A stretch of 55,145 bases of DNA from Emiliania huxleyi CCMP1516 (Eukaryota): positions 310,001 to 365,145 of the forward strand of contig NW_005202428.1 of assembly GCF_000372725.1 (NCBI RefSeq). The letters run 5' to 3'. This document shows positions 16,156 to 29,572 of this stretch, piece by piece. The number at the start of each line of letters is the position of its first letter. The stretch's first letter is position 1. The notes beneath the pieces were generated by a model. The model saw only the letters and a program-made list of their open reading frames with translations, ran no database searches and had not been told where the DNA came from. Made by a program: the position numbers and the translations under genes.

Positions 16156-19100
16156 TCAGCTCGCCGAGCTCGCCGCGGCGACGACGTCCTCCTCCGCGGA
16201 CGGCCTTCGCGCCGGCCGTGCCGCCCGCCAGCCGAGCAGCGGCCAGGGCGAAGCGCCGTGGTGGATGGCGACCTCTGAGCGGACCGACGCCTCGAGCAGC
16301 AGGATGGCGATGTAGGGGCCGGGCACGAACGTGGCGGTCATCCACGGCAGGCCCTCCTGCCACATCGCAAAGGAGCGCTCGACGGCGTCGCACTGCAGGA
16401 GCGCCTGCAACCCGCACCGTGGAGGGCACTGATGAGTTACTGGTTTAGTAAGCACGGGGGAGCGAACGAGAATGGCTTCAGGCCTGCATCCCGCTCTGCA
16501 GGTCGTTGTACTTTGTGCCCGCGGCCTGGTCGGCCGCCCACTGGCGCAGGTACATCGGGATGTCGTGCGTGAGGAGGAAGGCGAGGTAGAGGCTGATCAG
16601 CGGGCAGATGGCGGTGAGGAGCCTCGCCTGTCCAATCTCGCCCGGGTGGTCGCGCACGGCGATGACCCGCCGCGTGTGCACGGTGATGCCGAGCAGGACG
16701 GTGAAGGCGATGCCCCAGAGCCCCTCCTCGTACACGTGGTAGAGCTTGTTGTCCGTGACTACGCCAAGCCAGCAGGCGACCTGCGCGACGCCGACCGGGT
16801 GGCGTCTAGGAAGTGTCTAGGAAGTGTCTGGGGAAGTGTCTGGGAAGTGTCCTGGAAGTGTATGGGAAGTGTCTGGGAAGTGTCTGGGACCTGCGCGACG
16901 CCGACCAGGTAGAAGCACGCCCGCGCCAGCCGCGCGGCAGAGGTGCGCGCGTGCAGCTCGCTGACGTCGGCGATCGCGCTCACGACGAGGTGGGCGATCG
17001 CGAGCTCCATGCCCGTCGCGAGGACGCGGTCGACCAGCTCGCCGCCGAGCACGGAGCCGATGTAGCTCGTGTTGAACATGCACGCGTGTGGCCGCACCTG
17101 CGCGGACGCGTCTTGGGCGTGTCGGGGGCGCGTCTCGGACAAGGACGCGTCGTGGACGCGTCGTGGGCGTGTCGAGGACGTGTCGTGTCGTGTCGTGGGC
17201 GTGTCCGGGAAGTGTCGTGGGCGTGTCCGGGTCGTGTCGTGGGCGTGTCGAGGGCGTGTCCCAGCTCCCCGCGCGGCCGCACCTCCCAGTTGACGGGGTA
17301 GGAAGTGTCTGGGAAGTGTCCTGGAAGTGTCTGGGAAGTGTCCAAGCACCTCCCAGTTGACGGGGTAGAGCGCGCGGACGGTCGAGCCGATCAGGTAGGC
17401 GGCGGCGCAGAGGAAGCGCTTGCGCTGCGCGCCGTTGAGGGTCGGCAAGTTCTCCTTGACGGTGAAGAACCACTTGAGCTGCAGCAGCGAGTTGACCAGC
17501 AGCGCGGCCCACCACAGCAGCACGACCTGAGTCGTCTCAACTCGCGTCACCAAGTGTGAGAGCTCGGTGTGGCGTCCGCCCGCCGCAGCAGCACGACCGA
17601 CTCGTCCGAGCCGTCGAACGCGCCCGGGCGGCGCAGCCCGAGGCGAGAGACGACGAGCGGCGCGTAGCCGAGGTTGCGGACGAGCATCGCGCTTGTGGCG
17701 GTGCCGAGCGCGGCGCGGACCTGCTCAGTGTCGATGAGGGCGAGTGGGGGCGAGTGAGTGTGAGTGGAGTGTGAAATGCGTGCCGCGTCCCGGCGCGGAC
17801 CAGGAAGCGCCCGCGCGCGCGCCGCTCGCGCCGCTCGCGCCACTGGCCGACGGCGCGCTTGAAGACCTTGCGCACGTTGGCCGGCGCCGAGCGCAGCTTG
17901 TGCTTGACCGACTCGCGCTGGACGAAGCTCAGGTTTCGCGGCAGCCGCCCGCCCGTCGCGTTGACGGCGAGCGTGCGCAGCGTCTTGCCCGCCTGCCGCG
18001 TCGTGGCTCATGAGTGAAGGACGAGTCTGAGGGCGGAGGGAGGGGGGGGGCCCTCCGTCTCGCCCGCCTGCCGCATCTTTGACGCGAGACGGATCGACCC
18101 CTTGGACGGCACGCGCGGCAAGCGGCTGTGAAGGTTCTGAGAGATGGACGCGAGCACGGCCGCCGGCCCGCCGCCGCCCTCCCCCTCAGCGTCGGTCACG
18201 TCGGCAGCCTCGTCGACGGCGGCCTGCGCGAGGGCGGCCTCGGCCCGCGCCGACTCGGCGAGCTCGTCGCGGATCGTCGCCGCGAGCTGCCGCCCCCACG
18301 CCTCGCCGACGGTGAGCGAGACGCCCTGCCGCGTCACTTCGACGCCGTCGCCGCCGCCACGGGCGAAGCGCTCCCCCTCGAGGCCCTAACTCATTCGTTC
18401 ACTCATTCACCAACTACTCCATTCACTAGCCGCGGGCGAGGCGCTCCCCCTCGAGGCCCTAATTCATTAGTTCACTTTCACCAACTACTTAATTCACTAG
18501 CCGCGGGCGAGGCGCTCCCCCTCGAGGCCCTAATTCATTAGTTCACTTTCACCAACTACTTAATTCACTAGCCGCGGGCGAGGCGCTCCCCCTCGAGGCC
18601 CTAATTCATTAGTTCACTCATTCACCAACTACTTAATTCACTAGCCGCGGGCGAGGCGCTCCCCCTCGAGGCCCTAATTCATTAGTTCACTTTCACCAAC
18701 TACTTAATTCACTAGCCGCGGGCGAGGCGCTCCCCCTCGAGGCCCTAACTCATTAGTTCGCTCATTCACCAACTACTTAATTCACTAGCCGCGGGCGAGG
18801 CGCTCCCCCTCGAGGCCCTAATTCATTAGTTCACTCATTCACCAACTACTTAATTCACTAGCCGCGGGCGAGGCGCTCCCCCTCGAGGCCCTAATTCATT
18901 AGTTCACTTTCACCAACTACTTAATTCACTAGCCGCGGGCGAGGCGCTCCCCCTCGAGGCCCTAATTCATTAGTTCACTTTCACCAACTACTTAATTCAC
19001 TAGCCGAGGGCGAGGCGCTCCCCCTCGAGGCCCTAATTCATTAGTTCACTTTCACCAACTACTTAATTCACTAGCCGAGGGCGAGGCGCTCCCCCTCGAG

Positions 19101-28100: not shown

Positions 28101-29572
28101 AGAGGAGTGTGATGCGCTAGCCGTCGCCCACCCTGGGGAGTCTGCCTCTTCGTATCTCTTTTCGCAGTCTCTCGCCGCTTCTCGCTGCAACCTTCATGCC
28201 ACCTCGCGGCCGTCCCACTCTCGTCGGTCTCTCCCTTGTCACTTCCTCCTCTGTCGCGTCGTTCTCTTCTGCCTCGTCCTGCGACGCCGCCGCCTGCCGG
28301 TCCCTTGTTCTCGCGGCTTCTTTCGCCTTGCGCAACTCCGTCCTCCTCGCGGCGTATCCTGGCCCCTCGAGTCTATCAAGCTCCCCTCGCGCAAGGACCA
28401 CATTTCTGACTCCCACTCCGATCATTTGCCTACACGTCATGTTGTTGCTCAGGTCCACTCTCTCTTCGAACACTCGTGCCTCTACGGATGATGCCGGCGC
28501 TGGGGTCCCCTTCGGATGCATCGTGACATCTGACAACTGAATTTCCACTGGTTCGTCCTCCTCTGAGTCATCTTCCCCGTCCTCCTTCCGCTCGGCCCTT
28601 CGCTCGGTACGTTCGGTGTGGCTCACCCTCCATGCCGTGAACAGGCGCTTTATCCACCCTATATTCTTCTCTCGTTCCTCTGCATGTCTGTATGGCAATC
28701 GAGGCTGCCTTCCCCACTACCGTAGTTCACNNNNNNNNNNNNNNNNNNNNNNNNNNNNNNNNNNNNNNNNNNNNNNNNNNNNNNNNNNNNNNNNNNNNNN
28801 NNNNNNNNNNNNNNNNNNNNNNNNNNNNNNTCGACCACGGCAGGTAGATGCCGACGACACGCCGGCTGCTCGGCTCGGCGCAGCCTCGCGCCTCAAAGGC
28901 GTCCGCGTAGGCCTGCGCGCGCTCGTACGCCTGGCGCAGCGTCAGCGCCGTCTCCTCATCGATGAGCGCCTCCTCGCCGCCGTGCTCGGCGAGGGCGAGC
29001 GAGAGGAGAGGCCGCCACGGGTAGGCGTCAGGGTGCGGCCTCGTCGCGTTGTACTCCTCGAACGCGCGCACCGCGCCACTCGCCGCCGCCGACACATCCT
29101 TGGCCAGAGACTCGCGCAAGCCGGCAAACACTGCTGCCGCCCCGGGGCACGAGACGGGGGAGCCGGAGAGATCGTCCACCCACGTGGTCGGCACGTCCAC
29201 CCCTTCGAGGACCGCCGCCGCCGCCGCCACGTTCCCGCCGTCGTGCACGACCACGATGCGCACCAGGCACGCACCGCCCTTGCTCGCCGCGTCGGCGAGA
29301 CGCTGCGCGGCGCCGGCCTGGGAAGCGCTGAGGAAGAGGGCGAGCGGCTTGTCCAGGACCGAGGCCTCGCCGAGCCGGCTTACGAGCTGCTCGTCCTCGG
29401 GGTCAGACTCGACAAAGCAGTCGTACTCGGCCAGCTCGTGCGGGATGCGGTACGCCCAGCCGGCCTTGTCGTCGGCCGCGGCCGGAATGGAGAGGATGGC
29501 CGCGAGGCGCTCGCCGTCGGCGGCGGGCTGCGAGACCTGCTGCAGCGCCGCGTGATTCGAGAGGGTGCGCAT
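16156..29572 (-). CDS. NRPS-like reductase: degenerate TE-like N-terminus, adenylation (A), two thiolation (T), thioester reductase (R), C-terminal ~7-TM domain; many introns
   Basis: A motifs AYCVMTSGTTSAAK, WLTGE, NCYSTNE, GALHV..LGY, FTG|DL, VKIRGFKV, LPAYMVP, PSGK. T motif FFDLGGSL x2. R motifs VFLTGA|TGHVG, IIHVAAEVN, GYRQTK. Phase-0 junctions DEQ|GLE and MRQ|AGK link R to the TM exons. Exon 1 is present twice (ATG 27901 and 29572) around N-gaps. Confidence 0.8.
18361..19465. repeat. Intronic minisatellite of 71/73-bp units, each a 3' splice site plus the first ~29 nt of the next exon
   Basis: 16 copies of CTCGAGGCCCT spaced 71 or 73 bp; sense unit ...ACTAATGAATTAG|GGCCTCGAGGGGGAGCGC... 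Confidence 0.95.
21443..22003. repeat. (AGGAAGTGTCT)n 11-bp satellite in both orientations, intronic
   Basis: CACTTCCTAGA array at about 21443-21520 followed by an AGGAAGTGTCT array at about 21560-22003. Confidence 0.95.
22910..23208. repeat. Four 71-bp intronic units: exon start plus TGTGAACAG filler plus acceptor
   Basis: CTGTTCACAGCTGCAGGTGTGAAGAGACGCTGTTCAC starts at 22924, 22995, 23066 and 23137. Confidence 0.9.
24792..25313. repeat. (GT)n plus (GACGATCTCGC)n intronic satellites
   Basis: GT run at 24792-25001 and an 11-bp array at about 25030-25313. Confidence 0.95.
26929..27431. other. Assembly gap (other gaps at 28731-28830, 31772-32736, 52722-53232)
   Basis: Runs of N. Confidence 1.
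27953..28730 (-). mobile_element. 3' end of a LINE-like retroelement with (TTTA)n tail
   Basis: ORF end ...RLPRVGDG* at 28117, a 3' UTR, then (TTTA)n; sits about 50 bp upstream of one copy of the NRPS ATG and runs into a gap. No RT motif visible. Confidence 0.55.

What the first reader, a model, noticed from the sequence alone, without database searches (positions are those of the whole stretch)
16156..29572. NRPS-like A-T-T-R reductase fused in frame to an uncharacterised ~7-TM domain
Seen: after splicing, the R domain runs on without a stop (DDFADEQ|GLEGERF...KMRQ|AGKTL...RFL|VRAAL...DES|VVLLWW) into about seven hydrophobic segments with VRALYP, DRVLATGME, CWLGVVT.N...H.YEE.LW, DIPMY and LPWM motifs. 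Known: CAR, Lys2 and ATRR enzymes are soluble A-T-R(-R) proteins that release aldehydes or alcohols. Inference: I recall the TM motifs from an unannotated family in bacteria, algae and giant viruses. The fusion would tie that family to processing or exporting the reductase product, which would be an undescribed membrane-anchored pathway.
Basis: partly seen in the sequence, partly recalled or inferred. Interest (0 to 1): 0.85.

Follow-up and report, generated by a model that had tools for sequence, protein, structure and literature searches.

The report
Reductase fused to seven-helix membrane domain
One spliced gene, likely from a marine alga, joins an acid-reducing enzyme to an unstudied seven-helix membrane domain; it likely turns a betaine-like acid into an aldehyde or alcohol that the membrane domain would build into a membrane lipid, a possible lead to algal lipids with no known pathway.

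Summary
The fusion is real. Eight exons from 19849 to 16156 (minus strand) splice in frame, and assembled transcript proteins read from the reductase into the membrane domain. Three further forms at 68-75% identity keep the same join. The protein is A-T-T-R, a basic linker, a probable extra helix, then a seven-helix domain. That domain has no Pfam, NCBIfam or PHROG match, yet 1,754 clusters of relatives, including stand-alone forms in bacteria, a brown alga and giant viruses. Its predicted fold resembles GPCRs and microbial rhodopsins equally, without the retinal lysine, and its invariant Arg/Glu/Asp/Trp residues lie on one side of the membrane. Two leads point to function. The A pocket has the aromatic-plus-acid layout of the betaine reductase ATRR. 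In proteobacteria the membrane family tracks an uncharacterised lipid head-group module (21 of 22 carrier genomes, against 22 of 393 non-carriers), but only 1 of 5 in planctomycetes. Best reading, 0.4: an onium-acid reductase coupled to a lipid head-group enzyme. No substrate, product or activity is shown, and no paper on the fusion was found. New variant of a known kind; interest 0.72.

The parts
28831..29572 (-). First exon: about 190-residue N-terminal domain of no known family, then the start of the adenylation (A) domain
   Evidence: AMP-binding from residue 194; 72% identical to the 5' end of transcript L062; joined to 26821 by RNA contigs in 4 of 4 runs; no Pfam or PHROG hit for the L062 copy of the N-terminal part
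27432..27943 (-). Identical second copy of the gene's 5' end, flanked by an N gap (26929-27431); probably an assembly duplicate
   Evidence: 100% over 512 nt with 29103-29614; N runs
26587..26821 (-). A-domain exon with a low-complexity Gly/Glu insertion
   Evidence: covered by spliced RNA contigs; sequence
23319..26203 (-). A-domain core exons: P-loop TSGTT, pocket F74 W75 Y78 Y117 W146 T148 C172 D180 L181, catalytic K379 (P0016 numbering); edges approximate
   Evidence: exon mapping; Pfam; pocket identical in 4 of 4 forms that cover it
22384..23249 (-). Two thiolation (T) domains, each with DLGGSL and the carrier serine
   Evidence: PP-binding 47.9 bits against cut-off 20.8, two stretches; S446 and S524 kept in 4 of 4 forms
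19682..22248 (-). Thioester reductase (R) domain exons, TGATGHVG and YxxxK; last exon 19849-19682
   Evidence: NAD_binding_4 E 4e-36; closest solved R domain is MxaA 4U7W, E 3e-23; Y763 and K767 kept in 5 of 5 forms
18386..19681 (-). 1,296-nt GC-AG intron with a 71-nt array: 15 copies of the next exon's start, each after AG and each closing in a stop after 10 codons
   Evidence: skipped in run X5 and in proteins P0001, P0012, P0013, P0016
18068..18385 (-). Exon GLEGERF...KMRQ: probable C-terminal tail of R, then acidic linker
   Evidence: 63-74% identity over its first 60 residues in diverged forms; the TIGR01746 match stops at 302 of 371 before this exon
17801..17992 (-). Exon AGKTL...RFL: strongly basic linker
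   Evidence: 11 K/R in the last 24 residues before the first hydrophobic segment; linker 54-58% identical in diverged forms
17598..17720 (-). Exon VRAAL...DES: probable extra helix (TM0) that would keep the reductase in the cytosol
   Evidence: hydropathy peak of only 1.07-1.30 in three forms; 69-81% conserved; not modelled reliably
17350..17526 (-). Membrane helices 1-2, R50 and P54 (P0015 numbering)
16891..17097 (-). Loop with C64, helices 3-4, R82, T86, E89
16484..16780 (-). End of helix 4, helices 5-6, W131, H142, E145, E146, W149, D200, P202, Y204
16156..16404 (-). C231, helix 7 (W241, W247, F252, no lysine), tail and stop
15118..15794 (-). Second copy of the last exon and 3' flank, with small deletions; probably a second haplotype in the assembly
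   Evidence: 96% over 704 nt with 15811-16514

Best explanation
The gene encodes one membrane-bound protein of about 1,800 residues whose A-T-T-R part likely activates a small onium acid (glycine betaine, DMSP or a close relative) and reduces it to an aldehyde or alcohol, which the seven-helix domain would then likely attach to, or exchange on, a membrane lipid head group. Shown: the single reading frame, its conservation in diverged forms, intact A, T and R motifs, and the family's range. Predicted: the seven-helix fold and its one-sided polar pocket. Inferred: an onium substrate (about 0.55), a lipid head-group role for the membrane family (about 0.55), and that the two halves work in one pathway. 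An extra helix would keep the reductase in the cytosol while the pocket opens to the lumen, so the product would have to enter through the bundle or the bilayer. The length is an estimate, as part of the A domain lies in an N gap.
For: Fusion. Substrate: the A domain lacks the Asp that binds alpha-amino groups (alignments). W75, Y78, W146 and D180 are spaced 3, 68 and 34, matching ATRR's betaine cage F201, W204, W270, E304 (3, 66, 34; bioRxiv 10.1101/559534), and are unchanged in 4 of 4 forms. The nearest solved R domain is MxaA, which by my recall reduces to alcohols. Lipid link: among 59 bacterial loci, an Mpo1-like gene lies within 6 kb in 6, a membrane-anchored aminotransferase in 5, a phosphatidylserine-decarboxylase paralogue in 4 (about 0.2 expected), diacylglycerol kinase in 4 and a PmtA-like methyltransferase in 2. 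Genome-wide, 7 of 7 carrier proteobacteria hold the Mpo1-like gene against 22 of 393 non-carriers, and so do 14 of 15 further carrier genomes. R50, R82, E89, E145 and D200 are kept in at least 97% of the aligned rows (128-133 of 134 with a residue there), which suits catalysis or tight ligand binding better than a plain anchor.
Against: No activity is shown. The diatom enzyme PtNRPS1 has the same pocket spacing but reduces tryptophan (PMC13194791), and ATRR rejected DMSP, so the pocket does not fix the substrate. The module was within about 8 kb in 0 of 10 independently drawn loci, and in planctomycetes only 1 of 5 carrier genomes held the Mpo1-like gene. The 7 proteobacteria are about four lineages, and shared habitat was not controlled. 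A crude Pho-box scan found no enrichment (1 of 54 against 16 of 461). Only 1 of 5 carrier genomes had a strong full-length thioester reductase. The fold matches receptors and pumps, and no lipid enzyme is among the top 50. The T motif is one residue shorter than the usual GG(D/H)SL (recalled). I could not test whether the alga holds the bacterial module.
Confidence: 0.4

Rival explanations
1. The seven-helix domain is a sensor that binds a lipid or small ligand on the lumenal or outer side and switches the attached reductase, as enzyme-coupled rhodopsins do with their enzymes.
For: The fold matches GPCRs and rhodopsins at Z 14-15, rmsd 3.5-4.4 over about 200-230 residues. The pocket lies where GPCR ligands bind, with a conserved Cys pair in the outer loops. 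A long conserved linker and a probable eighth helix recall enzyme-rhodopsins (recalled).
Against: Stand-alone bacterial and viral members have no output domain and no consistent signalling neighbour. Helical bundles reach Z near 13-14 by arrangement alone (note). There is no retinal lysine. Partner genes are lipid enzymes.
Confidence: 0.2
2. The seven-helix domain is a transporter, channel or flippase that moves the reductase's substrate or product, or a modified lipid, across the membrane.
For: A cytosolic enzyme with an outward-facing pocket needs a crossing step. Rhodopsin-fold proteins include pumps and channels. LplT and MprF-like flippase genes lie beside some bacterial members.
Against: The conserved polar residues gather on one side and do not line a path across the membrane. 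No transporter family matched more than one of 52 members.
Confidence: 0.17
3. The two halves are functionally independent or only loosely linked. The membrane domain keeps its own role and merely tethers a reductase that makes a soluble metabolite such as an amino alcohol signal.
For: The fusion was found in one clade only, on a long branch. The family otherwise stands alone. An intron-retaining form, P0012, stops before the membrane domain. PtNRPS1 makes a soluble signal.
Against: The join, the linker (54-58%) and all pocket residues but one are kept in forms 68-75% identical. A 270-residue domain with an intact polar pocket is more than an anchor needs.
Confidence: 0.2
4. Two neighbouring genes were joined by read-through or by mis-assembly.
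For: The key joint has only 27 letters of contig support in 1 of 4 runs. One transcript protein, P0007, has a foreign start not encoded in the window. The region has assembly duplicates and gaps.
Against: Intron-free fused frames come from several assemblies and four diverged forms. The R domain appears to need the first downstream exon to be complete (inferred).
Confidence: 0.03

Closest known systems
ATRR glycine betaine reductase of fungi and nematodes (A-T-R1-R2; bioRxiv 10.1101/559534, PMC11050029)
   Same: NRPS-like reductase; A pocket without the alpha-amino-binding Asp, with aromatic residues and an acid at matching spacing
   Different: Two T domains; no R2 aldehyde reductase; Asp in place of Glu and Tyr/Trp exchanged in the pocket; extra N-terminal domain; membrane domain at the C-terminus
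PtNRPS1 tryptophan reductase of diatoms (A-T-R1-R2; PMC13194791)
   Same: Algal NRPS-like reductase with the same pocket spacing (3, 68, 34)
   Different: 'Transmembrane' occurs 0 times in its main text; it has one T and an R2, and makes free tryptophanol
Carboxylic acid reductases, Lys2 and MxcG/MxaA
   Same: A-T-R logic; the R domain is closest to MxaA among solved structures
   Different: Scores far under the family cut-offs (72 of 1300, 145 of 1030, 201 of 2300); no condensation domain; membrane-bound
GPCRs, microbial rhodopsins and enzyme-rhodopsins
   Same: Predicted seven-helix arrangement with the N-terminus out, an outward pocket, and a probable eighth helix before an attached enzyme
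   Different: 5-15% identity; no lysine in helix 7; own motif set; the enzyme is a biosynthetic reductase; stand-alone members occur in bacteria and giant viruses
Uncharacterised bacterial PSD-paralogue / membrane aminotransferase / Mpo1-like module
   Same: Travels with stand-alone members of the same seven-helix family in proteobacteria
   Different: No reductase in it; it occurs more often without the seven-helix gene (22 of 29 genomes) than with it; its product is unknown

Membership tests
NRPS-like A-T-R reductases (broad kind) | Adenylation domain with P-loop and catalytic Lys | tested here: met
   AMP-binding over cut-off; TSGTT and K379
NRPS-like A-T-R reductases (broad kind) | Carrier domain with conserved Ser | tested here: met
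   two PP-binding stretches, S446 and S524 kept; motif one residue shorter than usual (recalled)
NRPS-like A-T-R reductases (broad kind) | Terminal thioester reductase with NAD(P)H-binding glycines and YxxxK | tested here: met
   NAD_binding_4 E 4e-36; Y763 and K767; TIGR01746 163 bits, under its cut-off of 213
NRPS-like A-T-R reductases (broad kind) | [quoted passage not shown] | not testable with these tools
   needs an enzyme assay
ATRR / PtNRPS1 (A-T-R1-R2) | Second, SDR-type R2 domain at the C-terminus | tested here: not met
   no R2; the C-terminus is the membrane domain
ATRR / PtNRPS1 (A-T-R1-R2) | Aromatic cage plus acid in the A pocket | tested here: met
   W75, Y78, W146, D180 at spacing 3, 68, 34 against 3, 66, 34; compared by residue numbers, not by direct alignment
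ATRR / PtNRPS1 (A-T-R1-R2) | Orthology of the A domain by tree | not tested
   no ATRR sequence was available from a tool
Carboxylic acid reductase (NF041592) | Whole-protein score over the curated cut-off | tested here: not met
   72 and 79 bits against 1300
Lys2 aminoadipate reductase (TIGR03443) | Whole-protein score over the curated cut-off | tested here: not met
   145 and 144 bits against 1030
Microbial rhodopsins and heliorhodopsins | Seven-helix fold | tested here: met
   Z 14.8, rmsd 4.1, 214 aligned to xenorhodopsin, on a predicted model
Microbial rhodopsins and heliorhodopsins | Retinal-binding Lys in helix 7 | tested here: not met
   helix 7 has no Lys in the window protein, and no Lys is conserved in the family
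G-protein-coupled receptors | Sequence match to a GPCR family | tested here: not met
   no GPCR family in 52 members at E 0.1; no GPCR chain by profile search of solved structures
G-protein-coupled receptors | G-protein coupling | not testable with these tools
   needs a cell assay
CREST hydrolases (ceramidase, AdipoR, Per1) | Three conserved zinc-binding His with a Ser (recalled) | tested here: not met
   no His reaches 75% conservation in 134 members; AdipoR2 only at Foldseek E 0.078
PSS1/PTDSS base-exchange enzymes | Sequence match to the family | tested here: not met
   no hit in 52 members at E 0.1
PSS1/PTDSS base-exchange enzymes | Shared fold or catalytic site | tested here: inconclusive
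   only the top 50 of 3,925 structural matches are shown

The most novel reading that the evidence does not exclude
The protein is a one-chain head-group factory for an orphan algal lipid. It reduces glycine betaine or DMSP and installs the product as the head of DGCC or of the sulfonium phospholipid PDPT. The seven-helix family would then be a new class of lipid head-group enzyme with a rhodopsin/GPCR-like fold, shared by algae, bacteria and giant viruses.
Probability: 0.2. Interest if true: 0.92.

Novelty: new variant of a known kind. Interest (0 to 1): 0.72.

Why it matters
The fusion gives a first handle on a large family that no library names (1,754 clusters). It is also a membrane-bound NRPS-like reductase, a layout I did not find in print. 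The DGCC pathway was called 'conspicuously unknown' in 2018 (PMC5835749, passages) and still unknown in 2020 (PMC7242380, passages), although the lipid is abundant in plankton and rises under phosphate stress. PDPT carries the alcohol that reduction of DMSP would give (structure recalled). If the best reading holds, one gene makes these questions testable and ties osmolyte pools to membrane remodelling. If it fails, the family and the bacterial co-occurrence still stand as a tractable target.

Tried and rejected
No whole genome is held for the window, so paralogues and the bacterial module could not be sought in the alga. Pfam, NCBIfam and PHROG scans of the membrane domain gave nothing usable. 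Neither did profile search of solved structures (best E 0.02) or Foldseek against PDB (no match at E 0.001). The Atlas gave only unnamed clusters and no named hit. Plasmid and phage collections had no match. Viral contig scans found one locus in all. A search of 722-2,060-residue proteins found only the same R-membrane fusion, 2 of 7,989 candidates, which is weak evidence against other partners. A single-sequence fold of R, linker and membrane domain failed (pLDDT 40), so TM0 is not modelled. No lipid enzyme appeared among the top 50 structural matches, which excludes nothing. The Pho-box scan was negative. The first tree did not finish; the fast tree has long branches and names no donor. L062 was read in the wrong frame; its identity and pocket rows there are void and were redone. 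Two apparent conserved neighbours were antisense shadow frames and were dropped. L055 and L059 were left out of the immediate-neighbour scan because no full family ORF was called there. G531 was left out because its gene is split over two short contigs. Paper searches with no result. No complex prediction was run.
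Full report
The observation. The gene lies on the minus strand of a GC-rich eukaryotic sequence with short, repeat-filled GC-AG and GT-AG introns. That style, and near-identical proteins from MMETSP transcriptomes, suggest a coccolithophore-like haptophyte; this is my inference and no call names the organism. Eight exons from 19849 to 16156 splice at seven phase-0 introns into 576 residues without a stop, within 1 and 3 differences of database proteins P0001 and P0016. 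P0016 (1,435 residues) maps exon by exon over 26203-16159 and carries AMP-binding, two PP-binding and NAD_binding_4 domains above their cut-offs.

RNA evidence. Contigs of 4 of 4 runs show the six joints within the linker and membrane part, and bridge the gaps in the A domain from 28831 to 26821. Of the five runs laid in all, only X5 is on record as RNA; the others are guessed RNA, though their contigs skip the introns. The key joint 19682|18385 appears in 1 of 4 runs, at depth 455 beside 628 and 716, with only 27 letters on the short side. The intron holds 15 copies of the next exon's start, which probably fragments contigs there. Assembled proteins are firmer: 4 of 11 members read from a 31-member cluster cross the joint, and the other 7 start downstream. 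One of the four, P0012, retains the next intron and stops before the membrane part; P0007 has a start not found in the window. Three diverged forms keep the fusion: P0177 (A-T-T-R-membrane, 68%), L062 (near full length, 75%) and P0169 (R-membrane, 72%). The linker is 54-58% conserved and the membrane domain 67-69%. The two-gene reading is therefore very unlikely. The assembly has an identical second copy of the 5' end and a 96% copy of the 3' end.

The membrane domain. It matches no Pfam, NCBIfam or PHROG family. A profile finds 1,754 clusters at 50% identity; the best 150 are 177-412 residues long, though some of these are fragments of fused forms. Members occur in proteobacteria and planctomycetes (59 loci; 7 of 400 and 4 of 400 sampled species, centre genomes left out), in Ectocarpus and in giant viruses. 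A search of long proteins found only this fusion (2 of 7,989 candidates). The model of P0015 has seven long helices at pLDDT 88 and matches GPCRs and microbial rhodopsins about equally (Z 14.9-12.8 over the top 50, rmsd 3.5-5.4). Such scores are common for helical bundles and show no function. Helix 7 has no lysine. R50, R82, E89, W131, E145, W149, D200, P202, Y204, W241 and W247 are nearly invariant in 134 members and all lie at the ends of helices that face the loops 2-3, 4-5 and 6-7. Charge bias puts those loops outside or in the lumen. A weak hydrophobic segment after a very basic stretch would then be an eighth helix that keeps the reductase in the cytosol; this is inferred, and the fold meant to test it failed.

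The reductase. The A domain has the P-loop and the catalytic lysine, but aromatic residues where NRPS domains have the alpha-amino-binding Asp. W75, Y78, W146 and D180 are spaced 3, 68 and 34. ATRR's betaine cage F201, W204, W270 and E304 is spaced 3, 66 and 34 (bioRxiv 10.1101/559534; parts 1 and 2 of 3 of the text read; its figures and supplement with the full code were not seen). PtNRPS1 has 3, 68 and 34 but reduces tryptophan (PMC13194791, passages), and ATRR did not accept DMSP. So an onium or aromatic acid is likely and the exact one is open. The shorter Asp in place of Glu might admit a one-carbon-longer substrate; that is speculation. There is no R2. The nearest solved R domain is MxaA, so reduction to the alcohol is possible but untested. 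The protein is under the cut-offs for CAR, Lys2 and MxcG. PMC11050029 (passages) confirmed only the ATRR layout.

Partners in bacteria. Neighbours vary, and none of those scanned showed a carrier or thioester-reductase domain (108, 54 and 64 proteins, a subset of all neighbours). A lipid module recurs among the 59 loci: Mpo1-like protein in 6, membrane-anchored aminotransferase in 5, PSD paralogue in 4, diacylglycerol kinase in 4, PmtA-like and MprF-like genes in 2 each, and LplT, GDPD and patatin in 1 each. About 0.2 PSD genes would be expected by chance (9 matches in 31 Mb). The six module loci span about five lineages, with membrane proteins 41-63% identical apart from one close pair. Adjacency did not repeat in 10 independently drawn loci (0 of 10; one phospholipase A1). 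Co-occurrence in the genome did repeat: 7 of 7 carriers against 22 of 393 non-carriers (Fisher p 5e-9 uncorrected; about four lineages), and 14 of 15 further proteobacterial carriers. In planctomycetes it was 1 of 5 against a base rate of 5 of 401. Habitat was not controlled. Earlier AI notes describe the same module as phosphate-regulated. I found the module before reading them; my crude Pho-box scan upstream of the membrane genes did not support such control, and I do not count the notes as evidence.

How it most likely works. The reductase would activate an onium acid, carry it on one of two T domains and release the aldehyde or alcohol at the membrane, where the seven-helix domain would add it to or exchange it on a lipid head (0.4). 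Rivals are a sensor controlling the reductase (0.2), loosely linked halves (0.2), a transporter or flippase (0.17) and a false join (0.03). The weak points are the open substrate, a pocket that faces away from the reductase, and a fold that matches no lipid enzyme among the rows shown.

What is known. I found no paper on this fusion, on the membrane family or on the bacterial module. Searches returned nothing, one search returned only the PtNRPS1 paper, and searches gave the lipid and ATRR papers cited. Most subscription papers are outside the library. DGCC synthesis is described as unknown in PMC5835749 and PMC7242380 (passages); I did not find whether it has been solved since. PMC8018280 (passages) notes PDPT in Ostreococcus and Chromista; its structure and its presence in coccolithophores are recalled. 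PMC12724289 (passages) reports two betaine lipids in Emiliania and a route to PC by methylation, so this gene is not needed to explain PC.

Verdict. A real, conserved and apparently undescribed architecture built from a known enzyme kind and an unnamed family: new variant of a known kind, interest 0.72. The boldest open reading, a one-chain route to the head of DGCC or PDPT, has probability 0.2 and would merit 0.92.

Noticed in passing
window 18386-19466 (minus strand): Fifteen tandem copies of the exon start, each after AG and each ending in a stop after GLEGERLARG. They could act as decoy acceptors that give a soluble, clipped reductase. One copy at 19464 also repeats the spliced junction itself. 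Their use in RNA was not shown.
   Followed up: partly
window 27944-28730: A 787-nt stretch between the two copies of the 5' end, covered by many RNA contigs with scattered differences; probably a dispersed repeat.
   Followed up: no
window 29000-29572 (minus); L062:3-476: A conserved N-terminal domain of about 170-190 residues with no Pfam or PHROG match; its role is unknown.
   Followed up: partly
L062:477-479: A single in-frame TAG splits an otherwise continuous near-full-length transcript; most likely an assembly error.
   Followed up: no
L016, L031, L032, L047, L049, L057: Bacterial module of an Mpo1-like protein, a membrane-anchored class-III aminotransferase and a PSD paralogue, some with GT4 and PmtA-like genes. 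My untested idea: ring opening of a sugar lipid, then amination, decarboxylation and methylation, would give a DGCC-like head.
   Followed up: partly
window 1165-3747 (minus): An 861-codon frame with an internal 297-nt repeat, by eye an ankyrin-repeat protein; not scanned.
   Followed up: no
window 12722-14972 (minus): Two long frames directly downstream that look like parts of one gene with a HET-like domain (label recalled); not scanned.
   Followed up: no
structure search: An unnamed 214-residue viral protein, V5LM17, matches the membrane domain at E 1.5e-3, rmsd 3.3; perhaps a distant family member.
   Followed up: no
L060:4863-5714: The giant-virus member lies among core genes (topoisomerase II-like upstream) and next to a glycosyltransferase-domain gene.
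   Followed up: partly
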